IMG/VR virus record: IMGVR_UViG_3300031413_000001
From: a virus
Lineage: Duplodnaviria > Heunggongvirae > Uroviricota > Caudoviricetes
Reading direction: 5' to 3' (one strand)
Length of the DNA stretch: 63,025 bases
Shown here: positions 6,467 to 31,800 of the stretch, piece by piece
How positions within the stretch are numbered: position 1 is the first letter of the stretch
Layout of the letters: the number at the start of each line of letters is the position of its first letter
The notes under the pieces: model-generated
Database searches by the model: none
Told to the model about the DNA's origin: nothing
The model's input: the letters and a program-made list of their open reading frames with translations, nothing else
Position numbers and translations under genes: made by a program

Positions 6467-6508
6467 CAAATGGAAGTGGAGCCTATATGGGATGGGCTCC
6501 ACTTTTTA

Positions 6509-6584
6509 AGGTATCTTGTTTTGGAAGCTCTGGCCCTCTAAGGTCGCGCTGATTGGGATCACGTATCCCCTAAGATACCTACCA
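6509..6584 (+). ncRNA. atypical tRNA-like element ending ACCA
   Basis: AGGTATCTT/AAGATACCT stem plus ACCA, 76 nt, two internal hairpins. Confidence 0.4.
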
Positions 6585-6662
6585 CTACCATAGCGTGGCC
6601 TAAGCACGGTAGCCCAGCTACCGTTTCTTACTCGCAGATCGATTTCTGCCTAGAGGCCACCT

Positions 6663-7853
6663 ATGTCATATCAGTTTCCCAAGATCACTCACCTTCAGCA
6701 GGTTCTTGACGCAATCAAGGGACGCGAAGAGTTCGTCATTCGCGTCAGCGAAGAGTACGACTACACGATCGTCAACTATGCTGTGAATTTTGAAGACACC
6801 TTTCCTCCGGTAACGGACGAGAGGACTGCTATCCTGCGTGAGTGCAGGGGCATCACGTTCCGCACCAGCACTGGCGAGATCATCTCACGAAAGTACCACA
6901 AGTTCTTCAACTTGGGCGAGCGTCCCGAGACGCTTCCGGGTAACATCGACTGGTCGATGTCATATCGGGAGTTTGAAAAGCTGGACGGCTCCATGATCAC
7001 CCCGCTGATGATTGATGGCGGTGTCCGGTGGTGCACCAAGATGGGCTTGACCGACGTGGCAAAGCCCGTTGATGAGCACACCAAGGACATGATCAACTAT
7101 CATGAGTTCGCCAAGTATTGGATCAGCCAGGGCTGGACTCCAATCTTTGAGTGGTGCTCGAGGACTCAGCGAATCGTCATCGACTATCCTGAGGACGCAT
7201 TGGTACTGACTGCCATCCGAAACAACATCTCGGGTGAATACAAAACCTACGAGGAGTTGAAAGATGAAGCAGACGCTTATGGTATTCCTCTGGTCAAAGC
7301 CGGTCCAGAAATTGATGGCTTTGATCAGGATGCTGTCGATCTAATCCGCGCCATTGAGGGCAAGGAAGGCGAAGTATGGCGTGGTCGTGATGGCCACATG
7401 CGAAAGCTCAAGGGCGAGCACTATTGCTTGCTTCACAAGACGCTGGAGCACTTGAACTACGAAAAGGACGTCATTCGTCTGATCGTTGATGAAAAGCTGG
7501 ACGACGCCAAGCCATTCCTTCCCGAGGATCTGGTCTCCAAGGTTGAGAACTTTGCCAAGGCAATCTTCCACGGCCTCCGTGTCTACTCCAGTTATCTCTT
7601 TTGGGAGGTTCAAGCGGACTTCGACAACACCAACGGAAGCAAGAAGAAGTTTGCCGAGAAGGTAAAGGACCTCAAGGACCAGCGTTTCCGCTTTTGGGCA
7701 TGGGATCATTTGGAAGAGGGCGAGGATGCAGTTCTTGCTCACATGATCCAGCAGGTTGGAAACAATCTGTCCAGCCAGACCAAAGTCAACGATTTCCGCT
7801 GGGTATGGGGCGGTGCCTCGTGGGCAGATTTCCGGAAGACCTCGGAGGAGTGA
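6663..7853 (+). CDS. RNA ligase 1 (T4 Rnl1-like)
   Basis: RECRG, KFFN, EKLDGS, FEW, EG, KLK motifs. Confidence 0.9.
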   Translation: MSYQFPKITHLQQVLDAIKGREEFVIRVSEEYDYTIVNYAVNFEDTFPPVTDERTAILRECRGITFRTSTGEIISRKYHKFFNLGERPETLPGNIDWSMSYREFEKLDGSMITPLMIDGGVRWCTKMGLTDVAKPVDEHTKDMINYHEFAKYWISQGWTPIFEWCSRTQRIVIDYPEDALVLTAIRNNISGEYKTYEELKDEADAYGIPLVKAGPEIDGFDQDAVDLIRAIEGKEGEVWRGRDGHMRKLKGEHYCLLHKTLEHLNYEKDVIRLIVDEKLDDAKPFLPEDLVSKVENFAKAIFHGLRVYSSYLFWEVQADFDNTNGSKKKFAEKVKDLKDQRFRFWAWDHLEEGEDAVLAHMIQQVGNNLSSQTKVNDFRWVWGGASWADFRKTSEE

Positions 7854-7910
7854 CAAATACTGTGGGCCGTGCTATTCAAAAGTACGGCCCATAAATATGG
7901 TGTGAGCACG

Positions 7911-8261
7911 ATGCGGACCACCAACCAAAAGTCAAAACTGTCTCAAGGCTTTCCAATTGTCCTCGAGGTATCCCATCTCAAGCAGACGAATGTGGACATG
8001 CTCTACAGCTTGATTGAGATCTGGCTCCGACAAAACTGCAAGAGCCCCTGGACCCTTGAGGAAATCAATGAAATCAAGGGCGAAGACCGCAAGACCCACG
8101 TCTACATCCGCTTGGTATTCCAAGACCCGCGTGAGGCCGTCTTCTACAAGCTAAGTCCCAGCTACCTCCACAACCGTCAGCAGGTTTCATTCTTTCTCTG
8201 CAACTTCAACGTTCAGCATAGTAGATTAGCTTCGGAAGCTAGTAGTTCTGCTAGTCAATAA
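7911..8261 (+). CDS. FKL-motif family protein
   Basis: EIWLRQNCKSPW...VFQDPREAVFYKL. Confidence 0.65.
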   Translation: MRTTNQKSKLSQGFPIVLEVSHLKQTNVDMLYSLIEIWLRQNCKSPWTLEEINEIKGEDRKTHVYIRLVFQDPREAVFYKLSPSYLHNRQQVSFFLCNFNVQHSRLASEASSSASQ

Positions 8262-8298
8262 AAACGTTGACGCTGGATAAGAAAGTGTTAAAACAAAA

Positions 8299-8412
8299 TT
8301 GCGTTGCTAGAACGCAAGATCGGAAAGGGGCTCTGGCAGCCCCAATTGGTGCATTCCTCGCGGTAGAGTCCGCGGGAGGGTACATCGCTCTGGCAGCGAA
8401 CTCCCCTTTCCG
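8299..8412 (+). ncRNA. structured intergenic RNA with twin GCTCTGGCAGC hairpins
   Basis: 10-bp closing stem 8321-30/8403-12; TTGACG promoter at 8267. Confidence 0.45.
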
Positions 8413-8441
8413 GTACTGGAAGCCCTATTGGGAGATCGAAC

Positions 8442-8774
8442 GTGTCAAAGTATCGTGTAACGATGGATTTGGATTTTGGTGAACTAGCGCCAGACGCGAT
8501 CCAGAATAACGCTGGTGACTCCGCACGGGTGGAAGAGGCCTTCAAAAGCATGATCATCGGTCAGGCTCGGTCCAAGTCCATCAGCGAACTCCATACGATC
8601 CGCAAGGATGAAGACATGGACATGGACGTCAAAGCCATCAGAATGGCTGAGAAGCTCATGAAGATAAAGGCCACGTTGATGGCTGAAGCAAACCTCACTG
8701 TGGAGCAGCTCAAAGGTGATACCTGTATTGGTACTGAGCTGCCCTTTGAGAGAAAATACTGCGACGCGGCATAA
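8442..8774 (+). CDS. hypothetical protein
   Basis: GGAG SD, GTG start. Confidence 0.65.
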   Translation: MSKYRVTMDLDFGELAPDAIQNNAGDSARVEEAFKSMIIGQARSKSISELHTIRKDEDMDMDVKAIRMAEKLMKIKATLMAEANLTVEQLKGDTCIGTELPFERKYCDAA

Positions 8775-8814
8775 TCCACATTGACAACTGGGCATTCCTC
8801 TTCCATAAGAGGGC

Positions 8815-9654
8815 ATGACCCAAGCAACATGGATTCTTCACGGTAACATCCTGGAAAGGCTTGTTTACCATGGGCGCTCGCTGCCCGAGGCCATTACGGC
8901 CGCAGGTCATCGGTTCTCGATCATCGAATGGGAAACAGGACAGACTCCTCCCACTTCCGATGTTGACGCAAACCAGCCTGTCGTGCTGTTTGGATCCCAT
9001 CCATTTGTTCGCGCAATCAATCCCTCAGGAAAGTATCAGCCTGGACAGCTTGGTGTAAACGAGCGAACCACCGCTTCTGCATACATGAGCAATCTGCCCC
9101 TGGAGTGGTTTATGAACCGTGACGGGTTCTTTTTGCCATGGGCGGTGTTCAAGTTGCGCGCCAAAGAACTCTTTTATACCTGGGACACCGACCGGCTGTT
9201 TATCCGCCCCAACACGGGCTTTAAGAGCTTTGCTGGTCAGGTAGTCAAGTTTGGCACCATTGATGAGGACATCAATGGGCTCAACCAACTTACAGGCATC
9301 ATGGACGAGAACATGATCCTCGTCGCCCCTCCGCAGAAGATCCTGGGTGAATTCCGCTTCGTAGTCGCAGACGGCAAGGTCGTCACTGGTAGTGAATACC
9401 GGTGGGATGGTCGTCTAGATATTCGACGCGACTGGACACCCGAGTGTGAGGATCTTGCCCGTCAGGTGGCCGAGCATTCCTGGCAAGTGGATATCGCTTA
9501 TACCTGCGACGTCGCGCTCCTAGAGGAAGGTCCCCGTCTGGTAGAGCTCAACGGCTTCTCATGCGCGGGAATGTACGCCTGCGATATTGATAAGGTTGTT
9601 CGCGCGGTCAGCGATGCTGCGATCAAGGAGTTCTATGGCGATGATATTTCGTAG
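8815..9654 (+). CDS. ATP-grasp protein (R2K/DUF4343-like)
   Basis: FIRP...KSFAG, EFRFVV, DVA...LVELN; ends in TAG. Confidence 0.75.
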   Translation: MTQATWILHGNILERLVYHGRSLPEAITAAGHRFSIIEWETGQTPPTSDVDANQPVVLFGSHPFVRAINPSGKYQPGQLGVNERTTASAYMSNLPLEWFMNRDGFFLPWAVFKLRAKELFYTWDTDRLFIRPNTGFKSFAGQVVKFGTIDEDINGLNQLTGIMDENMILVAPPQKILGEFRFVVADGKVVTGSEYRWDGRLDIRRDWTPECEDLARQVAEHSWQVDIAYTCDVALLEEGPRLVELNGFSCAGMYACDIDKVVRAVSDAAIKEFYGDDIS

Positions 9655-9982
9655 GCAGGCCCATTCCAGTCGAAGCAAGTTGCATCTAAAGGTGTTCAGC
9701 CTTCACCGTACACTTCTTCCCTGGTATTCCACCGATATTCACTTCTGTAATATCAGGGAGTTTCTGTGTCCAAAGATTCGCAACACTGATTGGACCATTA
9801 CCACCAGTCAAGGTCAGGACCTGGAACGCTGGTTCAGGGAAAACGGAAAGGGCAATGCCTGCTTTACTGTTTTCAAAGGTGAGTTTGATCTTTCCAGGAT
9901 GGATTTCAACAACCGAACAACAGTTAGCTTCACGGATCGAAACACCGCGCTGATGTTCAAACTTGCACTGGGTGGGCGATGA
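9635..9982 (+). CDS. FKL-motif family protein
   Basis: ERWFREN...SFTDRNTALMFKL. Confidence 0.7.
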   Translation: MAMIFRRQAHSSRSKLHLKVFSLHRTLLPWYSTDIHFCNIREFLCPKIRNTDWTITTSQGQDLERWFRENGKGNACFTVFKGEFDLSRMDFNNRTTVSFTDRNTALMFKLALGGR

Positions 9983-10362
9983 GCTGGATTGAGGAAACCG
10001 AACTCAAGTATGTCAATAAGGGTCCTCAAGTGGGTATTCGCACCTATACCTACGAGTTCAGGGAAAAGTGGTGGCACCGCTTCATGCCCTTTAGGTCACT
10101 TCAGACTCGACAGTTTGACACCAATGAAATCAACGTCAATGGTGACTCCAATGGTCACCGCATGGTGCTGGCCAATCCTGACTTCGAGATCAACGGACAC
10201 AACGTTGTGGAATGGTGCCGAGCCACTGTCAGTCAGGGGCGAGTGCATCTCTGCTTTACGGTGACCTATGAGCTCATGTCGTTCAAAGAACCGCTAACCT
10301 TGATGGAAGCCCGCTTCAGCGATCGTCGACTGGCCACTCTGTTCAAGCTGACTTTTGGTTGA
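9979..10362 (+). CDS. FKL-motif family protein
   Basis: VEWCR...RFSDRRLATLFKLTFG. Confidence 0.7.
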   Translation: MSWIEETELKYVNKGPQVGIRTYTYEFREKWWHRFMPFRSLQTRQFDTNEINVNGDSNGHRMVLANPDFEINGHNVVEWCRATVSQGRVHLCFTVTYELMSFKEPLTLMEARFSDRRLATLFKLTFG

Positions 10363-10392
10363 CAGGCATCCAGACTGGCGTAGGGTGGACTT

Positions 10393-11742
10393 ATGATAAA
10401 GATTCACAACAGCCAATCTAGGCAGCTGGAAGAGTTTGTTCCGCAAATGCCAGAGGACATCAAAATGTATGTCTGCGGCCCAACGGTCTATGGTCCGGCG
10501 CATATTGGTAATGCCCGTCCCGCGATCGTGTTCGACCAGATGTTTCGGCTGTTGCGCCACGTATATGGCGAGGATGCGGTCGTGTATGCTCGCAATATCA
10601 CAGACATTGATGACAAGATCATCGCAGCGGCCAATGCCCAGAACGTTCCCATCACCAGGATCACAGACACGGCAACCGCTGCATACAGGGCTGATTTGCA
10701 GGATCTAAACTGCCTTGAACCCAGCTATGAACCACAAGCCACTGCCTACGTGACGGGCATGATCGGCTACATCCAGCTGCTGATGGACAAGGGTCATGCT
10801 TATGGGGTCGATGGTGAGATCTTCTTCCACGTTCCCAGCAATCCCTATCCCGGCTTGGCCAACCACACGGCCCTGGAAAGCGGATCACGGGTGGAAGTGG
10901 ATCCACGCAAAAAGGATCCCAGGGATTTCGTGCTTTGGAAGCCGGCTAAGGTTGGTGAGCCCAGCTGGTATTCTCCCTTTGGCATTGGTCGTCCCGGTTG
11001 GCATATTGAATGCACGACGATGATCCGAAGCCTACTCGGCGATACCCTGGACATTCACGGTGGTGGTGCGGATCTTCGCTTTCCCCATCATGAAGCAGAG
11101 TGCGCGCAGAGTCAGTGCATCAGCGATGGTGCGCCACTTGCCAACTACTGGATGCACAATGGTCTCCTGACTGTTGATGACGAAAAGATGAGCAAGAGCC
11201 GCGGAAACGTGATCATGCTCAGCGAGTTGTTCGAGAGGGTGCCCGCCGAGAGCGTCCGGTACTATTTTCTGCAGAGCCATTACCGCAGCCCAATGAACTT
11301 TACCTATGAGGGCTTGGAAGCTTCGCACCGCGCGCTGAGCGGCCTGTATGATGCCCTCTACCGCTGCGACGATGTCAACTACGCGGAAGACGTCCGGGTT
11401 CATGCGGACTATCTGGGCGGATTGCTCAATGATCTCAACACTCCACAGGCGCTGAGCACAATGCACCAGCTTGCCAACGACATGGAGCGCGCGGACAACA
11501 AGGGCTTCTTCAAGGGTCAGCTTTTGGCTCTTGGTCGTCTCCTCGGTTTGTTTGAAAGCACACCGCACCAGTGGCGCACCTTTGGTGTTGACAAAGATGC
11601 AGTTGATGCTCTAGTGCAGGCACGTCAAGAGGCGCGTAGAAACAAAGACTACGCAGGTGCTGATGCGATTCGTCAGCAGTTACTGAGTATGGGAATCACG
11701 CTGGCCGATGGCGTTCACGGCACTGAATGGAGGAGGGCATAA
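10393..11742 (+). CDS. cysS: cysteinyl-tRNA synthetase
   Basis: CGPTVY, HIGN, GRPGWHIEC, FPHHE, KMSKS. Confidence 0.95.
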   Translation: MIKIHNSQSRQLEEFVPQMPEDIKMYVCGPTVYGPAHIGNARPAIVFDQMFRLLRHVYGEDAVVYARNITDIDDKIIAAANAQNVPITRITDTATAAYRADLQDLNCLEPSYEPQATAYVTGMIGYIQLLMDKGHAYGVDGEIFFHVPSNPYPGLANHTALESGSRVEVDPRKKDPRDFVLWKPAKVGEPSWYSPFGIGRPGWHIECTTMIRSLLGDTLDIHGGGADLRFPHHEAECAQSQCISDGAPLANYWMHNGLLTVDDEKMSKSRGNVIMLSELFERVPAESVRYYFLQSHYRSPMNFTYEGLEASHRALSGLYDALYRCDDVNYAEDVRVHADYLGGLLNDLNTPQALSTMHQLANDMERADNKGFFKGQLLALGRLLGLFESTPHQWRTFGVDKDAVDALVQARQEARRNKDYAGADAIRQQLLSMGITLADGVHGTEWRRA

Positions 11743-12332
11743 TGGCCTGGGAATTACTAGCTTTCGGGGGTGTCATGTTCTGGACCATCCTCGGCGTGAT
11801 CGGTCTGATCATCACCACGCAGGTTCACAATGAACGGGTAGGCTGGGCGGCCTTTACCTTCATCGCGATCATCGCCGCCCTGATCCTTTTCACCAACGTT
11901 CCCAAGCTTCTGGCAAATGCCACGCTTCTGGACTACGTGGAAGGTATCCTGCTCTACTTCGCACTTGCGGGTATCTGGGCGATCATCAAGTGGCGCGGAT
12001 TCTTCCTGCCCAGCTTGTTCCGGCGCTACAATGACTTGCGTGAGGACTTTCTGTTCCGCAAAAAGCTCAACGAGATGCCGGCCGATCCTGCGGTGATCAA
12101 GGAGTTCAACGATCACTATGGTGTGCAGAGCCTGAACATCAACGCCAACCGCATGGTGCGAAACAACAAGGGTCGCATCACCACGTGGATGATCTTCTGG
12201 CCGTTCTCGCTTCTCGAGACGTTCGTCGGAGACTTCCTGGCCAATATGTTCGACCGGATCTACCGGAGCATTCATGGTCTCCTGCAGCGCATGAGCGACA
12301 GCATGGCGAGCAAGTACAGCGAACTGAACTAA
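11742..12332 (+). CDS. multi-pass membrane protein
   Basis: 3-4 hydrophobic segments. Confidence 0.7.
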   Translation: MAWELLAFGGVMFWTILGVIGLIITTQVHNERVGWAAFTFIAIIAALILFTNVPKLLANATLLDYVEGILLYFALAGIWAIIKWRGFFLPSLFRRYNDLREDFLFRKKLNEMPADPAVIKEFNDHYGVQSLNINANRMVRNNKGRITTWMIFWPFSLLETFVGDFLANMFDRIYRSIHGLLQRMSDSMASKYSELN

Positions 12333-12383
12333 ACGGTTGACGGCCTCCTGTCCTGTGTTACGACCAGGACAGGAGGTGCAATC

Positions 12384-12854
12384 ATGCGGAAACAGATCGA
12401 TAACGTAATCACTATCGTCAACAGCAAGGATGAGACCAAGCTGACGCCCATGCAGCGGGCAACCAGCAGGATCATCACACTGCTGTTCATCTATGCCATC
12501 ATCGTGTTGGGCTCCGCAGAGGTGTTCTCGCTGATCGAAGGCACGCCGTACTGGCAGAGCTTTTACTGGGCCAACATGACCAGCACCAGCGTGGGCTACG
12601 GCGACATCTCGCCCAAGGTCGTGCTAGGTCAGATCATGGCCATCCTGCTGGCAAACTTCTCACTTCTCTTTCTGAGCCCGCTGATCACTGGTCGCGTTGC
12701 GGCTCAGATGATCGTGGACAGTGACAAGTACACCCACGAGGAGCAGGAAGAGGCAAAGGCTGCGTTGCTCCGAACGGAAGCCAATCAGGAAAAGATGCTC
12801 GCAATGCTGGAAAGTATCACGGCACGTCTTGACGCCCTGGATTCCAAAGCGTAA
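12384..12854 (+). CDS. two-TM potassium channel (KcsA-like)
   Basis: TSTSVGYGD selectivity filter between two TM helices. Confidence 0.85.
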   Translation: MRKQIDNVITIVNSKDETKLTPMQRATSRIITLLFIYAIIVLGSAEVFSLIEGTPYWQSFYWANMTSTSVGYGDISPKVVLGQIMAILLANFSLLFLSPLITGRVAAQMIVDSDKYTHEEQEEAKAALLRTEANQEKMLAMLESITARLDALDSKA

Positions 12855-12865
12855 TAGGACGTAAT

Positions 12866-12938
12866 GCTTCCATAGCTCAGTTGGTAGAGCAGGGGCCTCT
12901 AAAGCCTTGGGTCGGGAGTTCGAGCCTCCCTGGAAGCG
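12866..12938 (+). tRNA. amber suppressor tRNA (anticodon CUA)
   Basis: Acceptor GCTTCCA/TGGAAGC, D arm GCTC/GAGC, anticodon loop CT-CTA-AA, T loop TTCGAGC, G73; CCA not encoded. Confidence 0.9.
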
Positions 12939-12947
12939 CAAAAGGAT

Positions 12948-13490
12948 TTGATCGTGGCAACACTTGGCGAAGACTTAAAGGCTATCGAAGATCAAAAGAC
13001 AAACGAGCGGATTGCTCGTCGGTCTGACATGCTCCGAAAGTTCGTCAAAGAAGACCTGCTCAAAGCCCTACAACAGGATATCGAAAACGGCGGGGATGGT
13101 CGTAAGGCCCTGGAAGCCCCATCGGATATCCGACACCTCTTTGCCGGTCCTTTGGACTATGATGGCTACTGCCCGCATACCAGTCCCAGGTCGACCTATT
13201 ACAAGGTCTGGCGTGAACTAGATGCGTGGGCCAAGGGTGAAAACCTGGCGATCTCCACCGGTACGCCCTTTGACAAAAACCAATACGGCGGTACACCCTG
13301 GGATATGCGACGCTGGGGAGGGTATCTGTACATCTCGGTACCCAAACCAGAGGAACCCGTAAGGCCCACTCCACCGGCTCTTCGCAAGGTGGAAAACGGT
13401 GCAAACATCACGATGAATGAGATGCTAGTTGGCATCTTCGCGTCCGTGATAATCACCTTTCTGCTAACCTACTTTTCGATAAGGCACTAA
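12948..13490 (+). CDS. hypothetical protein with C-terminal TM anchor
   Basis: ORF, hydrophobic C-terminus. Confidence 0.65.
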   Translation: MIVATLGEDLKAIEDQKTNERIARRSDMLRKFVKEDLLKALQQDIENGGDGRKALEAPSDIRHLFAGPLDYDGYCPHTSPRSTYYKVWRELDAWAKGENLAISTGTPFDKNQYGGTPWDMRRWGGYLYISVPKPEEPVRPTPPALRKVENGANITMNEMLVGIFASVIITFLLTYFSIRH

Positions 13491-13491
13491 C

Positions 13492-13974
13492 ATGGTAATG
13501 AGTCTCCCAGGCGGCATGGACGACACGGGCCCCAAGAAGCCCGGTGACCCCAACCCATTCGCAGAGCTGCTGGACTTGGTTGGCGCGCTGGTGAGCCTCT
13601 ATGAGGCCAAGCCCACGCTGACCCTGGCGAAGAAGATTCCACCGGAGATCAGGTCGCTTCAGACTTTCACGCGGGGTATGGCAAATCGTGCAGCCACTGA
13701 TGCAGTGGAGGATCTGCGGATTCGTTTCGAGGCTGCCCAGCGGGAGGCCAACAAAAAGACCTATCCCATCGCGGACAAGTTCTACAGCCATTCGGGCAAG
13801 GAAGACGGCATGGACGATGCCGCCAAGCTGGGCTTTGAGCGAGGGACGGCTGCCTTCGAGACTTATTGTAGGACGGGGTATGAAACCACGTTCGACGTGC
13901 TGGTCTATGAGGACGGCACGGTCAAGGCAACTCACGTCAATGGCGTCGCGCTAGTCGAGCCAGTGGAGATCTAA
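13492..13974 (+). CDS. hypothetical protein
   Basis: ORF tightly packed in operon. Confidence 0.65.
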   Translation: MVMSLPGGMDDTGPKKPGDPNPFAELLDLVGALVSLYEAKPTLTLAKKIPPEIRSLQTFTRGMANRAATDAVEDLRIRFEAAQREANKKTYPIADKFYSHSGKEDGMDDAAKLGFERGTAAFETYCRTGYETTFDVLVYEDGTVKATHVNGVALVEPVEI

Positions 13975-14790
13975 ATGCAGAACATCTTCGACATCAATGG
14001 TCTCCAGTTTTGGAGCGAGGAAGAGATTCGTCTCCGGGAACACTTCCGGGACTTCTTCGCTCGGCGGATCCAGCAGGATCTCCTGGCCTTGAATCCACAG
14101 TGGGCCTTCCACTTTATCGAGGCTCCGCTCCTCACTCCTCGTCCGCTGCTGAATGCCAACTACACCAGCAAGGACGTGTGGGACCAGGCAGGTCACGGCG
14201 ACAGCGAGCAGCCGCTGACGCTTCGTCCGGAGACCACGCCGGGCAGCTACGCCTACGCGCAATATCTGCTCAACAACCACACGGGCAGCAAGCCTCCCTT
14301 TGTGGTCTGGCAAGCTGGTAAGAGCTTTCGTCGCGAGATCATCCAGCCAACCAAACACATGCGGTTGAAGGAATTCTATCAGCAGGAATTCCAGTGCCTG
14401 TTCACCGCAGATACGGCCAATGACTACCATGGGGCTATGCTGGAGCCCATCCGTGCGATGATCGCAAGCCAGATACCCCTGCCGACGCGCCTGGTCCCCA
14501 GTGATCGTCTGCCCACGTACTCGCTGAAGACCATGGACGTGGAAGTGTGGAACGGCGACAAGTGGATGGAAGTCTGCAGCATCAGCCTCCGAAATGACTT
14601 CCCGGAAAAGCTGACCTTTCAGACCAAAAAGGGTCTCGTGGAAAAGGACGCCCTGGTCCTCGAGATTGCCATTGGTCTGGACCGGATCATCTACAACTGG
14701 CAGCAGGGTCAGCGCACGAATATCATCCGGACAGCGCCCATTGAGTTGCCGGTAGCGGTGGAAGAGGAAGTTGAGGCGCATCCCTCGTGA
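13975..14790 (+). CDS. class II aaRS catalytic core, GlyRS-like, lacking anticodon-binding domain
   Basis: LRPET, motif 2 GKSFRRE..RLKEFYQQE, motif 3 EIAIGLDR; 271 aa. Confidence 0.8.
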   Translation: MQNIFDINGLQFWSEEEIRLREHFRDFFARRIQQDLLALNPQWAFHFIEAPLLTPRPLLNANYTSKDVWDQAGHGDSEQPLTLRPETTPGSYAYAQYLLNNHTGSKPPFVVWQAGKSFRREIIQPTKHMRLKEFYQQEFQCLFTADTANDYHGAMLEPIRAMIASQIPLPTRLVPSDRLPTYSLKTMDVEVWNGDKWMEVCSISLRNDFPEKLTFQTKKGLVEKDALVLEIAIGLDRIIYNWQQGQRTNIIRTAPIELPVAVEEEVEAHPS

Positions 14791-15068
14791 AGCAAACCGC
14801 CGTCACGCCGGAGAACTATCCAGTTATCGCAGGGGTGGGATCACTCTGCTTTAGCAAAGGGGTTCCGCTGGAAGTTGTCCTGACATTCTTCCAGACCAAC
14901 AAATACGTGGTTGATTGGTGTGATTACATTGTCACGGCGATCAAGGATGGGCACAATCCCCGCACCATACGGGCTCGCATTGATAGTGCGGTCACCGACA
15001 TATATGGCAAGGACTATGCCAAGGAAGTGCTGGAACGCACTGACAAAGTCTTGGATATCCTAATATGA
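14787..15068 (+). CDS. small protein resembling an AlaRS helical subdomain
   Basis: G..LCFSKGVPLEVV...VVDW is similar to AlaRS G..F.LYDTYGFP...VD. Confidence 0.45.
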   Translation: MKQTAVTPENYPVIAGVGSLCFSKGVPLEVVLTFFQTNKYVVDWCDYIVTAIKDGHNPRTIRARIDSAVTDIYGKDYAKEVLERTDKVLDILI

Positions 15069-15433
15069 GCATCCTAGCCCATCTGATTGAGAAGTCGCTT
15101 GACTTTGTAGTGAACGGATGGGAACTCAACAGGGAGCAGGACTCTGATGAACCTGTACCGTTCGTTGCAATCAGTCTGAACGTTACGATTCCTGAAGCGG
15201 ATATCGAGGAAGATCTCTGGTATTCTCTTGATGACAACTTCAAGGACCCTGAGACCGGAACAACCTACTATAGCTTTGATTTCGATGGTGATGGTCCCAA
15301 TCACTGGGGCAGATTTGCTGTTCATGCAAGGGGCACAGACATTCCTGAGATACTTGATATCCTTCGGGGTGAGATAGATTTCATGCTGGGATGGTTGACA
15401 ACCCTGAGTGGCAAGGATACAGTGACAGGATGA
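15065..15433 (+). CDS. acidic hypothetical protein
   Basis: ATGA overlaps at both ends. Confidence 0.65.
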   Translation: MSILAHLIEKSLDFVVNGWELNREQDSDEPVPFVAISLNVTIPEADIEEDLWYSLDDNFKDPETGTTYYSFDFDGDGPNHWGRFAVHARGTDIPEILDILRGEIDFMLGWLTTLSGKDTVTG

Positions 15434-15870
15434 AGTTCATTGTCCACAGCCGCTACAACATGATGGCCGCCATTCCACCTGAAACGCCCTGGGCAGTTAT
15501 CAGCGTGTGCGAGAAGGGTGACTTTCCCGAAATCCAGGCCAACTCCTTTATGAAGGGGCGACTGAACCTTCGCTTTCATGATGCGGATGGTGCGTTTGCT
15601 CATGAGCAGGAAGATACCGAAATCATCCTGTTCGACGAAGCCCATGCCCAGCAGATCCTGGAGTTCTACGAAAACATGGTCGAAAAGGGCGTGGAGATCA
15701 TGTTCGTCCACTGCCTGATGGGTCAGAGCCGGAGCGCAGCGATTGCGGCCGCCCTGGAAAAGACCTTCAACGGCGATGATGGCAAATACTTCAGCAACGG
15801 GCCCTACAAGCCCAACATGCTGGTGTTTCGCACCACGCTGAATGAAGCGCACGAGCGCGGACACATCTAA
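15430..15870 (+). CDS. protein-tyrosine/dual-specificity phosphatase-like
   Basis: HCLMGQSRS CX5R motif. Confidence 0.8.
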   Translation: MKFIVHSRYNMMAAIPPETPWAVISVCEKGDFPEIQANSFMKGRLNLRFHDADGAFAHEQEDTEIILFDEAHAQQILEFYENMVEKGVEIMFVHCLMGQSRSAAIAAALEKTFNGDDGKYFSNGPYKPNMLVFRTTLNEAHERGHI

Positions 15871-15932
15871 CTCTGAATTGCAAAACTGAGCGGAGGTAAC
15901 TAGAATGAAAGTATTCTAGTTTGAGGTCCTCT

Positions 15933-16787
15933 ATGAGTTTTGGTGCCTACATTATCAGCTTTGCGGACAACGATCCAGAGAAGCGCGCAGCACGTTTTGA
16001 AGTCCACAACATTCAGCTGAATGAGTGGCTTGAGAATACCGACATCGACATCAACGTTGTGGCGATGAATTACCAGCCCGGAGATCACCACCCTGACCCC
16101 CGCGTGATCTACCACGACACGGCTCCCCGGAAGTGTTCCGCAGCACGGCATGAAGCTTTCCGCTTGTTCTACGCCAGTGATTATGACTGGGGTGTGATCA
16201 TGGACAACGATGCAATGTTGTACAACGCTCCGCAGCACAATAGCGGATACGGGCTTATCAAGGAAATGACCAAGCATCTCAAAGATTACCGAGAGCTAGG
16301 CATATTCTTTCCCATCAATCCTGCAAAGAGTCCCTTCACGGAACTTCTAAAGGATTACCGTCACACGGATCGTCATGTTTTCAAGAGAAATATGGATCTC
16401 AAAGGAAGCCTGATGTTCGTAAAGAACTTTGTCAAGAAAGGCTTGCCCGCTCCCTATCCTGATCCGGAGTTTGATTGGTGTGAGGATGGAAAGCTGGCAC
16501 TGGACACGGTTGCACTTGGTCACACCGTGATGGTTTGCGAGAACTTGGTCTTAAAGGAAATGGGACTGAGTTCCAGTAGCTTCGCGACAGCGGAAGTGGA
16601 TCGCAAGCCATTCATGCAAGAGGCCAATCGTCGCATTGTGGAAAAGTTCAACGATCCACTACTAACTATGAGGTCCGGTGAAAGTCACCTCCTAGATAGC
16701 AAAAAGTGGGTCAACAGGGAATGGAAGGGTCGCCAGAGCCTCTCAGTTGGCAAGAGCGGTGATGACACTGAGCTGTTTTCCTTTTGA
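15933..16787 (+). CDS. putative GT-A glycosyltransferase
   Basis: AAR helix then VIMDND (DxD), later ED motif. Confidence 0.5.
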   Translation: MSFGAYIISFADNDPEKRAARFEVHNIQLNEWLENTDIDINVVAMNYQPGDHHPDPRVIYHDTAPRKCSAARHEAFRLFYASDYDWGVIMDNDAMLYNAPQHNSGYGLIKEMTKHLKDYRELGIFFPINPAKSPFTELLKDYRHTDRHVFKRNMDLKGSLMFVKNFVKKGLPAPYPDPEFDWCEDGKLALDTVALGHTVMVCENLVLKEMGLSSSSFATAEVDRKPFMQEANRRIVEKFNDPLLTMRSGESHLLDSKKWVNREWKGRQSLSVGKSGDDTELFSF

Positions 16788-16919
16788 TATTTGACCTGAG
16801 GGTCCGCTGGGTGTAAATACGTGGTATGAAAAAGATTCTAACACACCACTAGGCACCCCGCGGCCCTCCACTCACAGCTAGAACTGTCTTTGTTTTAGTT
16901 TCAAATGTGAGTGTATGGT

Positions 16920-17270
16920 ATGAGTGATGTTACATGGGTGGACTATTTTGCCACCGACGGCGTAATCGCCCCACAAACCCCTGAACAGGCGCAGGCTGAA
17001 GAAGCCGAGCGAAATGAACTCTTCGAAGAAGATGACTTCGAGGATGCCGACTTTGCGCCTAGCATCAACAGCAAGTTTCCAGGATGGTATCTGGTCCGTA
17101 TGTTTGGCTTCACGTGGAGCAACATGGGCGAGATCAAGACCTGGTGTGAGGAATGCACCTCATTCGGTGGCTGGGAAGCCGTTGGGTGGAGTAGCGGTTG
17201 CAGCACCAGCGTGGGTGTTGTATTCGAAAGTCCAAAGGATGCTATGATGTTCAAGTTGAGGTGGCGGTGA
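16920..17270 (+). CDS. FKL-motif family protein
   Basis: IKTWCEE...VFESPKDAMMFKLRW. Confidence 0.75.
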   Translation: MSDVTWVDYFATDGVIAPQTPEQAQAEEAERNELFEEDDFEDADFAPSINSKFPGWYLVRMFGFTWSNMGEIKTWCEECTSFGGWEAVGWSSGCSTSVGVVFESPKDAMMFKLRWR

Positions 17271-17623
17271 CATATTGGACTTGGAACGGTCACGATGATG
17301 ATCTGCCCACCCTCCATGTTTTTGAATATGGTCTGTTGAACATCTGGGAAGATGGTCTGACCACTGAAAAGCATTGGATGGATGCCGATCCTCCCCATCT
17401 CAAGCCTGAGGTTCTCGCGGACATCAAGGAATGGGGTGGAGTATGGGATGGTCCCAATATCCAAGTCCAGTTTCCTGATGGAAACGATCATGGTGCTCTT
17501 ATGTGGAAACTCAAGTATCCCAGTAAGAGTGGTTGTACGTCACCTGACCGCAGCACCTACACTGATGCCAATGGCGTCCGGTGGATTAAGAGCCAAGGTT
17601 CAGGTCTAGGCAAAAAGATTTGA
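17267..17623 (+). CDS. FKL-motif family protein (divergent)
   Basis: IKEW...QFPDGNDHGALMWKL. Confidence 0.6.
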   Translation: MTYWTWNGHDDDLPTLHVFEYGLLNIWEDGLTTEKHWMDADPPHLKPEVLADIKEWGGVWDGPNIQVQFPDGNDHGALMWKLKYPSKSGCTSPDRSTYTDANGVRWIKSQGSGLGKKI

Positions 17624-17698
17624 TTTAGTGGTTGACGTGTTCCTAATATCCACTAAGTTGAAGTTGTCCAATGAGGACATAGAAGAAAGGAAAGTTTA

Positions 17699-18157
17699 AT
17701 GCTCACGAACTCGTTCTTGTAGGAAGCAATCGACCGCTACGAAGCGGATAACGACGCCGAGGCCTTCGAAGCTGCCTCTGATAAGCTTCGCATTTACAGC
17801 ATCATCCGCGGCGACCTGGATATGACTCCGGGTAAGATGGCAAGCCAGGCTTGTCATGCGGCCAAGAACTGTGTGCTCCTCGCGAGTCGACGCGATCCCG
17901 CGCTCCTGCGTGTTTATCAGGGCCCGGACTTCATCGGCACCCAGGTCATCCTGAAGGCAAAGAACGAAGGTGCCATCTTGCGCGCCTACGAAGCAGCCCA
18001 GGAAGCTGGCCTGATCACCTCGCTTATTGTTGACAAGACCCACGTAATTCCGGGAACGGCATTCGATGGTAACCCCATCGTGACCGCCCTGGGTATTGGT
18101 CCTTGCACCAAGGAGCAGGCGCACGCCATCACCAAGCGATTCTCGGTGGTGGGCTGA
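17699..18157 (+). CDS. pth2: peptidyl-tRNA hydrolase Pth2 with in-frame TAG at codon 8 (17720-17722)
   Basis: IYSIIRGDLDMTPGKMASQACHA, VILK, IVD, TALGIGP; SD AAGGAA before ATG 17699. Confidence 0.85.
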
Positions 18158-18483
18158 TGAGCAGGGACTTTGAAACCGCACGGGCAGCGGCAACTCTCGC
18201 CTACACCACAGAGTACCAAAAGCACGGAGTAAACTTCGTTCCGCCGGTCAGTCCCATGAAGGACCGGGTATGGAGTGAGATGCTTCGAGCAGCGTGGCCC
18301 GATCAGGCCAGCGTTGAGGTGAAGAACTTTGGGTCCAACAAGCCCAACTACACCGAGATGCGACGCTGGTGCGATGAAAAGTCCAACTGCTCATATTGGA
18401 CAAATGGTGGCGGAAGCCGCTGGTATTTTGAGCGCAAGGACATCGCAGCGATGTTCAAACTGACTTTTGGAGGAGTTCAATAA
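18157..18483 (+). CDS. FKL-motif family protein
   Basis: RRWCDE...YFERKDIAAMFKLTFGG. Confidence 0.75.
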   Translation: MSRDFETARAAATLAYTTEYQKHGVNFVPPVSPMKDRVWSEMLRAAWPDQASVEVKNFGSNKPNYTEMRRWCDEKSNCSYWTNGGGSRWYFERKDIAAMFKLTFGGVQ

Positions 18484-28851: not shown

Positions 28852-31800
28852 TTAGTTCATCTTCCTCTGAAGAGAACCATCAACGACCTCGCCACCTGGA
28901 ATCTGGATCACAGTTCCATCATTGCTGATTGTGAGACTTGCCATCGTATTACTGTCAATCTTCGCACCAGTTAGATGCCACTCGCTTCCGCGCTGCTCCA
29001 TGCCGGTGTAAGTTAGGCGAACGTTACCAATCCAAACCACGCCTGGAACATTGTAGTTGTCAAGAGGGATGATGTTCCAGCTCTTACCATTTCCAAGATC
29101 CACGAAGTCGGTGGAAACATCAACTTGAATGGTGCCGTTCCAGTTGGCCTTTTCACTTCCCTTGGTCTGGTTTACCACAGTTCCAATTGCACGCTTGCTG
29201 GGGTCATTGACGTTCACGATTGCAACACGAACGTTATTGCCCATCAGACCAGCGGGAAGACCATCCAGTTCATTGCTGTTCCTCAGCTTGAACGTCTTGG
29301 CTCCCTGGGTCGTCATATCAACCTGCGAGCTGCTACGGAAGCCCTTGCTGATTGCCACATCCCTCATGAAGCCCGTAGAAGGCCGCTGTGGGTTGTGAAG
29401 TGGGGTGTAGCCCTTGTTATCCTCTTGAGCCAACTGGCCTTGGATGACTAGTTCCCGCGCACTCTGATCGTATGATACGAAGTTAAGTGTGCCACGAGTC
29501 ACTGAGCTGTCCTGCCAGATACCCTTGGTGTCCATAAAGGACTTTTGGATCAGGTTGCCACTGCGGGTAACGTTGACGATAATGCTCTCTGCGCCCTTGA
29601 TGTAAACCAACTCGCGAGGACGATCGCCATTGATTCCGGGCTGGGCAAACACGTTGCCATCAACACGGATACCCGCGGGATCAGCATCATCAGCTGGAGT
29701 GGAGTTGCCGTCCAGGCGATCATAGTCATCACCTGCGCGTGCCCTGACTTCATTGGTCCAGAGGCTGCTATCCCACTCAAACACATCCCATGCACCATCG
29801 AGGAACGGGCTGCTGACAATCGTGCCATCGAATCCACATCCCTCAATCAAGTTGGGATCGTCGGTGCGTGCCATGCCAGGAAGTGGACGATAAGCCTCAA
29901 GGCGAGAAGCGGTTCCCATGTCGGGATCCTGATTCCAACCAATGGACTGGAACTCAACCCAATCAGCACCAGACCACATGAAGTTCTTCTTCAGTGCGAT
30001 AACGACCACAATGGAGCCTGGACGATCAGGAGCAACAATTCCCTTACGTACCAGATAGTTGCGCTCCTCGATGGTCTCAACTGCCTGATCCTGATAGTAG
30101 TTGGCCGAACCATTGGTGGCTCCTGCTCGATACTTGGCAGTCAACTGGCTTAGAGTCTGAAGCTGGCCACCACGCTGATCATAGACAACCAGCGATGGAT
30201 CCCAGGGGTTCACATCCCATCCACGAAGACTTCCACAGCTAACGCGATCATACTTGATCGTGGTCTTCAGCTTTCGAACGCCATTCCAATCCTTGTCCCA
30301 GTCGGCCACATCCTTGGCGTCCTTCTGGTAATTGGTGATCCAATCCTTCCAAGGACGATTCAGCGACATGATCTGAGTGTCAGCTGGGTTGTTGACGTCT
30401 AGGACGCGGTTTGCTGCACCATCAGGATACACAGGCTTGTCAAAGTCCGTGATCGCAAGGTCAGCAACATCGGGACCATAGCTTAGGCGACGAACGTATT
30501 CGCGAATCTTCACGTGGTAGGGCTTGACGTCCTCCAAGTATGCGATAACGTTGTCAATCTGGTCCTTGAATGCCACTGGGCTCTGACGAAGCGTTTCCGA
30601 GTAACCACCCAAGTAGAGGAATGATGTCTTAAACGCCCAGTCGATAACCATGCTCTGACGGAATGCACTCTTGACCATGCTGAAGAAGATCTTGTTCCTC
30701 TGAAGCGTGTCCAGAAGAATGGTCCTCATTGTGTTGAGCATGAACTCAATCTCACGACTACCATCACGATAGTTGATCATGTCTGCAAGGACCTGGATCC
30801 TATCAGGAGTCAAGCGCGCTTCCGGAGAGGTGTCCAATAGTGCTGAGACCTGCTCAGGACCAAACTCACGACGTGCGTTGTCGTAGAATGCGTCACTTAG
30901 CTTCATCGTGCTGTTGTGCTTGGCAACCTGATACTTGGTTGTGTTGGTGTACACATCCCAGGTCCAGCGACTATCAGTGTCAACATGGTCAATCTGAACC
31001 AACGTTCCCTTTAGAAGCGTTACGTCCAGGTTACCAGCAGCATCACGTGCCGCAGTGGTTGCAAAGCGATAGTTGGGGAAGTTCTTGGCCGACCAGTTGT
31101 CATCATACCAGTCAACGAGGTTCCACAATTCACCTTCCTGCATACGCCACTTCTGCGTGTCCTCAAGGATAAACTGACGAGCACCATTGATCTCAACCAT
31201 CTTCCAGAGGGTCCAGAAACCACTAGCTGCCTCAGTTGCTGGGATGAACACGCACTCATTTACTTGCACCAAGTTACGCGATGCTGGAATCAGTGCCTTC
31301 AACTCATCAAGATCCAACGCGGTCGTCACATAACGATCGCTGGTTGGTGGTGTCTCACCAGTCTCAAAGACCTCACGCCAGTTGTACCACTGATCGATGA
31401 ATGGCTGGGCAGCCAACACGTTGTTCATGATATCAACAAATGCCTCGCGTGCTTCGCGATGTGGACGCTGGCCACCATTGGGGCTTGGCTGCGCGGGGAA
31501 CCAGCTCTGACGAGGACGAACCAGCGAACCAACCTGCTGGGCACGCGGCAAACGTGCATCAGGAACTGGCTTCTTGGTTGCATCCCAGCCCACCAAGCTG
31601 TCGCGCATCTTGCTCCACAGACTGTCGTGGATTGTATTGCGCTCATCTTCCTCACGAAGGATGATCCACTGCTTGTGATGATTGTTGTGGATCTCTGCGT
31701 CGATGTTCCACTTTACCTTCAGGACAGTGTCGGTTTCATTCAGGAACTGCTTGATGCCGCCGACGATTACCTGGTTCTTGCCAATAACTGCGAAGAATGG

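What the first reader, a model, noticed from the sequence alone, without database searches (positions are those of the whole stretch)
12866..12938. Canonical amber suppressor tRNA(CUA) in a genome that is not globally recoded
Seen: clean 73-nt cloverleaf, anticodon CTA at 12899-12901, G1-C72, C2-G71, G73, two G-U pairs in the anticodon stem. By my manual check only 2 of roughly 70 called genes end in TAG (9654, 61542), and long genes (3710, 1053, 950 aa) have no internal TAG. Inference: UAG is avoided as a stop and used sparingly as a conditional sense codon. The tRNA could also disturb host UAG termination. The charged amino acid cannot be read from the sequence.
Basis: partly seen in the sequence, partly recalled or inferred. 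Interest (0 to 1): 0.8.

Follow-up and report, generated by a model that had tools for sequence, protein, structure and literature searches.

The report
Amber suppressor tRNA gating phage Pth2
A giant soil phage that otherwise uses the normal genetic code carries a genuine UAG-reading tRNA, and its one conserved target is an early in-frame UAG in the phage's own peptidyl-tRNA hydrolase (Pth2) gene 4.8 kb downstream, so that enzyme is probably made only when the tRNA overrides the stop.

Summary
The tRNA(CUA) at 12866-12938 is real (Rfam 65.9 bits). It is conserved with an invariant CUCUAAA anticodon loop, and 16 of its 21 stem pairs show compensatory changes across 11 diverged ~420-480 kb phages. 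No relative carries a sense anticodon.

The genome is not recoded. In three near-complete relatives TAG ends 5-6% of genes, swaps freely with TAA/TGA between orthologues, and coding density falls if TAG is read as sense.

One gene is the exception. Pth2 (window 17699-18157) reads SD, ATG, six codons, TAG, then 33 codons with no start codon that include the fold's first beta-strand. This layout holds in all 24 related loci. A genome-wide scan finds it only in Pth2.

Agrobacterium phage Atu_ph07 has TGA at that site and carries a tRNA(UCA) instead of CUA, so the stop and the anticodon co-vary.

The adjacent GlyRS-like core is not its dedicated synthetase, because it is missing from three relatives that keep the system. 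The inserted amino acid is unknown, and nothing here is experimental.

This scan has found the same tRNA/Pth2 pairing before on other DNA (120 notes, at least 84 genomes). I found no published description.

The parts
12866..12938 (+). tRNA(CUA), amber suppressor. Canonical 73-nt cloverleaf, G73, no encoded CCA. It sits 11 nt after the stop of the K-channel-like gene and 9 nt before the next ORF, so it is probably processed out of an operon transcript.
   Evidence: conservation and covariation
12899..12901 (+). Anticodon CTA inside the loop CTCTAAA, which is invariant in 11 of 11 family members.
17686..17694 (+). Shine-Dalgarno-like AAAGGAAAG, 7 nt upstream of the leader ATG of Pth2.
   Evidence: an SD is present before the leader in all relatives
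17699..17719 (+). Seven-codon leader of Pth2 (MLTNSFL). Within the close clade the peptide is kept through synonymous changes.
17720..17722 (+). In-frame TAG, codon 8 of Pth2: the proposed target of the tRNA. Invariant in 8 of 8 close relatives. An early TAG is present in 23 of 24 loci; Atu_ph07 has TGA.
17723..17821 (+). 33-codon stretch with no ATG/GTG/TTG, encoding an N-terminal extension plus the first beta-strand and RGDL motif of the Pth2 fold. Variable sites by codon position 1/2/3 are 7/6/23 of 33 each.
17699..18157 (+). Full read-through Pth2 ORF, 152 codons including the TAG. Public annotations of relatives start it at the internal ATG (17822 here), which would remove beta-strand 1.
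   Evidence: annotations
8815..9654 (+). ATP-grasp (R2K) gene ending in a genuine TAG stop. The orthologue ends in TGA in G003. Read-through would add 32 codons.
13975..14790 (+). GlyRS-like class II catalytic core without an anticodon-binding domain. It neighbours the tRNA in the close clade but is not required for the system.

Best explanation
The tRNA is a functional phage-encoded amber suppressor. After transcription, processing, CCA addition and charging (probably by a host synthetase; amino acid unknown), it competes with release factor 1 at UAG. Its selected target is codon 8 of the phage's own Pth2 gene. Ribosomes start at ATG 17699 and translate MLTNSFL. Without suppression they terminate and release only a heptapeptide. 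With suppression they continue in frame through a 33-codon stretch that holds the first beta-strand of the Pth2 fold, and so make complete Pth2. Full-length Pth2 is therefore gated on the presence and activity of the suppressor tRNA: a one-gene code switch in an otherwise standard-code genome. TAG stays an ordinary stop for about 5% of genes, which would suffer partial read-through. Shown here: the tRNA is real and under selection, the in-frame stop is conserved, the downstream stretch is under coding selection, only this gene has the layout, and stop and anticodon co-vary. Inferred: expression, charging, actual read-through, and the purpose of the gate (a timer or feed-forward link between the phage's tRNA supply and peptidyl-tRNA recycling).
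For: The tRNA is real and selected. It scores 65.9 bits against Rfam. In 11 family members, 16 of 21 stem pairs carry compensatory changes and the loop CUCUAAA is invariant. All 7 viral contigs found through the neighbouring gene carry CUA, and so does Phosso.

The target is defined by several results. The Pfam PTH2 profile matches positions 3-113 only if translation passes the TAG, against 13-113 from the internal ATG. Solved Pth2 structures (1q7s, 1rlk, 2zv3) align from their residue 3-7 to the stretch upstream of the internal ATG. The leader-TAG-linker layout is present in all 8 close relatives, with variable sites at codon positions 1/2/3 of 7/6/23 in the linker against 18/16/84 in the core. 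The same layout, with different leaders, occurs in Phosso, G009, G010, L103, L105 and 10 further metagenome loci. All have an SD and none has a canonical start before beta-strand 1.

The layout is specific. A scan for SD + short leader + stop + at least 12 startless coding codons finds 3 TAG cases (Pth2 in each of three genomes), 0 TAA and 0 TGA. It finds only Pth2 in the window. A second PTH2 paralogue in the same genomes starts normally, as do the distant Pth2 genes of XacN1, Xoo-sp13 and phiM12.

Stop and anticodon co-vary. Atu_ph07 has MIGEHF-TGA at the site, a tRNA(UCA), and no CUA tRNA among all Rfam-detected tRNAs. Complete genomes whose tRNA lies far from Pth2 (G009) still carry a CUA tRNA.
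Against: Nothing here is experimental. Expression, CCA addition, charging and read-through are all unobserved. The covariation rests on a single TAG-to-TGA switch, that is, one evolutionary event. A suppressor strong enough to make Pth2 would also extend the roughly 5% of phage genes, and many host genes, that end in TAG, and I found no compensating context or tandem-stop signal. XacN1 has two CUA tRNAs but a normally starting Pth2, so suppressor tRNAs in jumbo phages are not always tied to Pth2. G001-G003 carry a second, unrelated CUA tRNA, which could be the actual decoder. My gene calls are crude, and amber codons in poorly conserved genes could have been missed.
Confidence: 0.75

Rival explanations
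1. Orphan or general suppressor. The tRNA serves a genome-wide or host-directed purpose, such as buffering amber mutations in a huge genome, disturbing host UAG termination, or a first step towards recoding as in the Borges model. Under this reading the early stop in Pth2 is handled by another mechanism or is only a side effect.
For: Published jumbo phages carry suppressor tRNAs with no known target: XacN1, Atu_ph07 and phiKp24. Borges et al. propose that suppressor acquisition precedes recoding. XacN1's Pth2 starts normally.
Against: The stop type co-varies with the anticodon. The arrangement is stable across phages whose Pth2 is only 67-75% identical, and in-frame TAGs have not spread to other genes, which does not look like a transitional state. 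No canonical start codon exists for re-initiation in any of 24 loci.
Confidence: 0.15
2. Dedicated orthogonal pair. The adjacent GlyRS-like class II core, which lacks an anticodon-binding domain, charges the tRNA(CUA) without reading its anticodon.
For: The core lies 50-1900 nt downstream of the tRNA in all 7 close viral contigs and in Phosso. It retains the motif 2 region conserved with dimeric GlyRS.
Against: The core is absent from complete genomes G009 and Atu_ph07 and from the held 38% of G010, all of which keep the suppressor and the gated Pth2. The acceptor-stem pairs 1-3 vary freely and position 73 is A in G009, so no fixed acceptor identity set exists. An earlier agent reached the same verdict (e1-5595605).
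Confidence: 0.05
3. Not a translational suppressor. The tRNA acts outside decoding, for example as a decoy for host anticodon nucleases, a primer, or an aminoacyl carrier for a transferase.
For: It lies in a cluster with a T4 RnlA-like RNA ligase, ATP-grasp enzymes and a phosphatase, which by background knowledge suggests tRNA repair.
Against: This reading does not explain a matched in-frame stop in Pth2, or the switch to UCA with TGA. The tRNA has a fully canonical elongator shape.
Confidence: 0.05

Closest known systems
Stop-codon-recoded phages with phage-encoded suppressor tRNAs (TAG read as Gln, 'code 15': crAss-like and Lak phages; Borges et al., bioRxiv 10.1101/2021.08.26.457843)
   Same: A phage-encoded tRNA(CUA) in a standard-code host. 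In-frame TAG makes expression depend on the phage's own tRNA, which that work proposes as a timing device.
   Different: There, dozens of genes (structural and lysis) carry in-frame TAG, and coding density rises under code 15. Here density falls, TAG is a working stop, and one gene is gated, at its very start. No release factor gene is present.
Orphan suppressor tRNAs of cultured standard-code jumbo phages: XacN1 (2 x CUA, PMC5852040), Atu_ph07 (UCA, PMC6102473), phiKp24 (UUA, PMC8386662)
   Same: The same kind of genome and the same puzzle. Atu_ph07 is a true relative (Pth2 67-69% identical, syntenic RNA ligase).
   Different: Those papers report no target. XacN1's authors searched read-through of its 18 amber stops and found none. 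Here a target is identified, and it applies to Atu_ph07 (gp256) but not to XacN1's Pth2.
prfB (RF2) autoregulation through an early in-frame UGA
   Same: An early in-frame stop in a translation-factor gene, with output set by competition at that stop.
   Different: prfB is passed by a +1 frameshift, and its own product reads the stop. Here the frame is unchanged, a dedicated tRNA is the decoder, and Pth2 does not recognise stop codons. No feedback loop has been shown.
bldA tRNA-Leu(UAA) and rare TTA codons in Streptomyces (background knowledge)
   Same: A specialised tRNA gates a handful of genes that carry a codon otherwise almost unused in reading frames.
   Different: bldA reads a sense codon. 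Here the codon is a stop that still terminates other genes.
Engineered suppressor-tRNA feed-forward loop (PMC7969014)
   Same: The target gene carries an amber codon and the suppressor tRNA is supplied separately, so output needs both inputs.
   Different: That system is synthetic. This one is natural and conserved.
Archaeal/eukaryotic-type peptidyl-tRNA hydrolase Pth2 (PF01981; PDB 1q7s, 1rlk, 2zv3)
   Same: The gated protein matches the family over profile positions 3-113 (E 5.8e-21).
   Different: It has a roughly 20-residue N-terminal extension and the leader-stop. Its enzymatic activity is untested.

Membership tests
tRNA (Rfam RF00005) | Cloverleaf scoring above the family's gathering score | tested here: met
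   65.9 bits against a gathering score of 29, full model 1-71. 16 of 21 pairs carry compensatory changes in 11 relatives.
Amber suppressor tRNA | Anticodon CUA in a normal 7-nt loop | tested here: met
   CTA at 12899-12901, with loop CTCTAAA invariant.
Amber suppressor tRNA | Inserts an amino acid at UAG in vivo | not testable with these tools
   The only evidence is indirect: a conserved in-frame TAG with coding selection downstream of it, and covariation between stop and anticodon.
tRNA-Pyl (ARAGORN's label) | Atypical shape: short D-loop without G18G19, 6-bp anticodon stem, 3-nt variable loop (background knowledge) | tested here: not met
   The tRNA has a canonical D-loop AGTTGGTA, a 5-bp anticodon stem, a 5-nt variable loop and a TTCGA T-loop. 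I did not search for pyl genes.
Globally TAG-recoded phage (code 15) | Many genes with in-frame TAG; higher coding density when TAG is read as sense | tested here: not met
   Density is 0.833 under code 11 and 0.818 with TAG as sense. No in-frame TAG lies inside conserved genes. TAG stops are interchangeable with TAA/TGA between orthologues.
Globally TAG-recoded phage (code 15) | Phage RF2 or another release-factor gene (present in some members) | tested here: not met
   No RF-1 domain match in G001, G002, G003, G007 or G009.
Suppressor-tRNA-gated Pth2 cassette (known only from this scan's earlier notes; unpublished as far as I could find) | PTH2-family gene whose only canonical start lies upstream of an early in-frame stop | tested here: met
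Suppressor-tRNA-gated Pth2 cassette (known only from this scan's earlier notes; unpublished as far as I could find) | A tRNA matching that stop encoded in the same genome | tested here: met
   A CUA tRNA is on the same contig in 16 TAG loci. Atu_ph07 has UCA with TGA. Seven short fragments could not be assessed.
Dedicated aaRS/suppressor-tRNA pair | Synthetase and tRNA always co-occur | tested here: not met
   The GlyRS-like core is absent from G007, G009 and G010.

The most novel reading that the evidence does not exclude
The suppressor tRNA and the stop-gated Pth2 form a self-contained translational circuit. Pth2 output reports how well the phage's own tRNA is made and charged relative to release factor 1, and Pth2 may in turn act on peptidyl-tRNA species produced by suppression or by very short reading frames. 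That would be a natural switch or feedback loop coupling a private codon reading to tRNA recycling during infection. It would give the 'orphan' suppressor tRNAs of standard-code jumbo phages such as Atu_ph07 and Phosso a defined function.
Probability: 0.3. Interest if true: 0.85.

Novelty: new variant of a known kind. Interest (0 to 1): 0.7.

Why it matters
Suppressor tRNAs in standard-code jumbo phages have been reported repeatedly with no target. XacN1's authors looked for targets and found none, and Atu_ph07's authors only guessed at 'several potential genes'.

A single conserved, stop-matched target in a translation-quality-control gene turns that puzzle into a testable natural gene switch. 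Two members of the clade are cultured, Atu_ph07 on Agrobacterium and Phosso on Sinorhizobium, so the test is within reach.

The result also shows that public annotations truncate this Pth2. They start it at an internal Met. RefSeq omits the Atu_ph07 tRNA altogether, and the Phosso record labels its tRNA 'Undet'.

Finally, it offers a natural minimal example of one-gene stop-codon reassignment. That bears on how code change begins, and could be of interest to engineers of amber-suppression circuits.

Tried and rejected
1. First cross-genome scan for in-frame stops, six frames with stops read as X. It was swamped by conserved antisense and off-frame 'shadow' ORFs and I discarded it.

2. Scan restricted to called genes with at least 20 aa on each side. 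It found no in-frame TAG, but by design it cannot see stops that are conserved in all genomes or that lie near N-termini. It missed Pth2.

3. X-to-X aware scan. Apart from Pth2, every conserved TAG-to-TAG column lay in a conserved 5' leader upstream of an obvious ATG. The TGA and TAA controls gave many more such hits, because neighbouring genes often share a frame.

4. Programmed C-terminal read-through of TAG-terminated genes. Extension lengths, coding scores, the base after the stop and tandem stops do not differ between the three stops, and TAG stops are not conserved between orthologues. Rejected.

5. Isotype by paralogy. The best match among G001's other 54 tRNAs is 53 of 73 identities, to the other CUA tRNA. 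BLAST against phages hits mostly Lys tRNAs, with single Phe, Arg, Thr and Leu hits, through the generic D-arm. No assignment was possible.

6. GlyRS-like core as a dedicated synthetase. Rejected.

7. AlphaFold model of Pth2 from a 6-sequence alignment. Mean pLDDT was 59, too weak to use beyond secondary structure, so I ran no fold search.

8. Promoter and terminator scan of 10000-18400. Counts were no better than shuffles.

9. XacN1 as a second cultured example. Its Pth2 starts normally.

Full report
**1. The observation**

ARAGORN finds exactly one tRNA in the window, at 12866-12939 (+), with anticodon CTA at position 34. Rfam's tRNA model matches 12866-12938 end to end at 65.9 bits, against a gathering score of 29. 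CCA is not encoded. ARAGORN's 'tRNA-Pyl' label reflects only the anticodon; the shape is that of an ordinary elongator tRNA.

**2. Where the window comes from**

The window's own assembly is not held. The nearest record, G001, is a 416,714-base IMG/VR phage contig that is 96% identical around the tRNA. Distant relatives include two cultured phages:
- Sinorhizobium phage Phosso, 469 kb.
- Agrobacterium phage Atu_ph07, 490 kb, identified as G007.

The window is therefore a piece of a roughly 420-470 kb jumbo phage. These phages carry 30-59 tRNA genes.

**3. The tRNA is under selection as a CUA tRNA**

I fetched seven viral contigs using the neighbouring class II synthetase-like gene as query. 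All seven have a tRNA(CUA) just upstream of that gene. Phosso has one at the syntenic position, annotated 'tRNA-Undet'.

In an 11-member alignment:
- 16 of 21 cloverleaf pairs carry compensatory double changes.
- The loop CUCUAAA is invariant.
- Position 73 is G in 10 members and A in one.

G001, G002 and G003 each also carry a second, unrelated CUA tRNA, and none has a UCA or UUA tRNA.

**4. The genome is not recoded, and TAG is an ordinary stop**

I used a crude codon-score gene caller of my own.

| Source | Result |
|---|---|
| Window | TAA 39, TGA 23, TAG 1 of 63 genes |
| G001 / G002 / G003 | TAG share 5.6% / 4.7% / 6.0% |
| G001 coding density | 0.833 under code 11; 0.818 with TAG as sense |

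Further points:
- Reciprocal-best orthologues that end at the same C-terminus exchange TAG with TAA and TGA freely. The window's ATP-grasp gene ends in TAG, and its G003 orthologue ends in TGA.
- Read-through extension lengths have medians of 19, 23 and 19 codons for TAG, TGA and TAA.
- The base after the stop and the frequency of nearby backup stops do not differ between the three stops.
- No release-factor gene is present in five genomes.

'UAG avoided as a stop' is therefore no more than the usual rarity of TAG.

**5. The target**

My first comparative scans found no in-frame TAG. An earlier first-reader note on this same window (e1-5595603) pointed to the Pth2 gene, and I tested that lead.

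The sequence reads:
- AAAGGAAAG (Shine-Dalgarno-like), then 4 nt.
- ATG at 17699, then six codons, giving the leader MLTNSFL.
- TAG at 17720-17722.
- 33 codons with no ATG, GTG or TTG.
- The ATG at 17822, which gene callers pick as the start.

Evidence that the protein must begin upstream of the internal ATG:
- The Pfam PTH2 profile matches positions 3-113 (E 5.8e-21) when the stretch after the TAG is included, but only 13-113 from the internal ATG.
- Solved Pth2 structures (human Bit1 1q7s, 1rlk, 2zv3) align from their residue 3-7 to 'RIYSIIRGDLDM'. Their first beta-strand lies upstream of the internal Met.
- Distant phage Pth2 genes (XacN1, Xoo-sp13, phiM12) start with a normal Met just before that strand.
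- A second PTH2 paralogue in G001-G003 also starts normally.

**6. Conservation of the layout**

In eight close genomes the leader peptide, the TAG and the linker are all kept.

| Region | Variable sites at codon position 1 / 2 / 3 | Sites per position |
|---|---|---|
| Linker | 7 / 6 / 23 | 33 |
| Pth2 core | 18 / 16 / 84 | 111 |

The linker is therefore translated in this frame. The TAG is invariant.

More distant relatives have different short leaders, each preceded by an SD. In every case the leader is followed by TAG and then 8-38 codons with no canonical start before beta-strand 1. The leaders are MKY, MTYN, MSY, MTAFT, MTM, MDFT, MSEFT, MNVHLPFR and MNMKTEFL.

In all, 24 loci show the layout.

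**7. Specificity**

I scanned for SD + leader of at most 12 codons + stop + at least 12 startless codons with positive coding score, upstream of a called gene. In G001, G002 and G003 this returns three TAG cases, which are Pth2 in each genome. It returns none for TAA or TGA. In the window it returns only Pth2.

The other conserved TAG-to-TAG columns lie in 5' leaders upstream of clear starts.

**8. Covariation**

Atu_ph07 has MIGEHF-TGA at this site. Among all of its Rfam-detected tRNAs, including three with introns, there is one tRNA(UCA) and no CUA tRNA.

The complete genome G009 and the partial genome G010 have the TAG form, and each carries a CUA tRNA far from Pth2. Where a tRNA lies within the available flank of the metagenome loci, it is CUA.

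So 16 TAG loci have a CUA tRNA on the same contig, and the one TGA genome has UCA. The remaining loci are short fragments or flank-limited loci that cannot be assessed. This is a single evolutionary switch, so it is suggestive rather than statistical proof.

**9. The neighbouring GlyRS-like core**

The 271-residue protein at 13975-14790 is a class II catalytic core. Its nearest relatives are dimeric GlyRS (PDB 8u2q, E 8e-10; the NCBIfam GlyRS model matches at a score far below its cutoff). It lacks an anticodon-binding domain. It belongs to a large family on long phage contigs.

It is tightly linked to the tRNA in the close clade. However, it is absent from Atu_ph07, from G009 and from the held part of G010, all of which keep the suppressor and the gated Pth2. 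It is therefore not the dedicated synthetase. This agrees with an earlier agent's verdict (e1-5595605).

**10. Which amino acid**

This cannot be read from the data.
- The stop sits in a clade-specific extension, and no relative has a sense codon there.
- Acceptor pairs 1-3 vary freely, so identity probably rests on the anticodon and position 73.
- Borges et al. see only TAG read as Gln and TGA read as Trp in phages, and note that CUA tRNAs are glutaminylated in E. coli.

Gln is the best guess, held with low confidence.

**11. Literature**

- The Atu_ph07 paper notes the UCA suppressor and lists gp256 as a putative Pth, but does not connect the two.
- RefSeq starts gp256 at the internal ATG and omits the tRNA.
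- The XacN1 paper searched for targets of its two CUA tRNAs and found none.
- Four full-text searches found no description of a suppressor-gated Pth2.

Within this scan the same pairing has been reported before on other DNA: 120 notes in at least 84 genomes.

**12. Verdict**

The most likely mechanism is a one-gene translational gate: full-length Pth2 is made only when the phage's amber suppressor overrides the early UAG.

Caveats:
- There is no expression or charging evidence.
- The covariation rests on a single event.
- The cost of reading through ordinary TAG stops is unexplained.
- The purpose of the gate is unknown.

Noticed in passing
G001:330698-330776 (-); G002:441571-441647 (-); G003:293258-293333 (-): A second, unrelated tRNA(CUA), with A73 and encoded CCA in the G001 copy (the one whose sequence I read), is conserved in all three near-complete relatives. 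G009 has only the window-type CUA tRNA. Its role, and whether the window's own genome carries it, are unknown.
   Followed up: partly
window 13975-14790 (+): GlyRS-like class II catalytic core of 271 aa with no anticodon-binding domain. It belongs to a large family (1911 hits; the top 120 are all at least 56% identical, many on contigs of over 100 kb). It sits next to the tRNA in the close clade but is absent from Atu_ph07, G009 and G010. Its function is unknown.
   Followed up: partly
window 6505-6590 (+): A tRNA-sized structured element upstream of the RNA ligase gene, with a long closing stem, a hairpin whose loop contains CUCUAA, and an ACCA near the 3' end. The fold energy z-score is only -2.0, and I did not check conservation.
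   Followed up: partly
window about 17664-17680 (+) and relatives: A short conserved hairpin (GTCC-N6-GGAC) lies about 10-25 nt upstream of the Pth2 Shine-Dalgarno in all close relatives. It could be a regulatory or processing element for the Pth2 message.
   Followed up: no
window 6663-18157 (+); L007, L102, L089: A conserved translation and tRNA-maintenance cluster: T4 RnlA-like RNA ligase, R2K ATP-grasp, CysRS (449 aa, TIGR00435 above its cutoff), a K-channel-like protein, the tRNA, the GlyRS-like core, a dual-specificity phosphatase-like protein and Pth2. The order is kept, with losses, from Phosso to Atu_ph07.
   Followed up: partly
Atu_ph07 = G007: 68159-68280, 323905-324023, 335108-335213: Three tRNA genes of Atu_ph07 carry short insertions of 26-48 nt in the anticodon loop. 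ARAGORN calls them Lys(UUU), Tyr(GUA) and Ser(UGA) only in its intron mode.
   Followed up: no
NC_042013.1 430713-430784 and gp256; PV764938.1 171983-172058 and CDS 267: Public annotations miss the system. Atu_ph07's RefSeq record lacks the UCA tRNA and starts gp256 at the internal ATG. Phosso labels its CUA tRNA 'tRNA-Undet(nnn)' and also starts Pth2 at the internal ATG.
   Followed up: yes
window 28852-39984 (-): A 3710-aa ORF followed by a 1053-aa ORF on the minus strand. I did not examine them beyond noting that orthologues exist in G001-G003.
   Followed up: no
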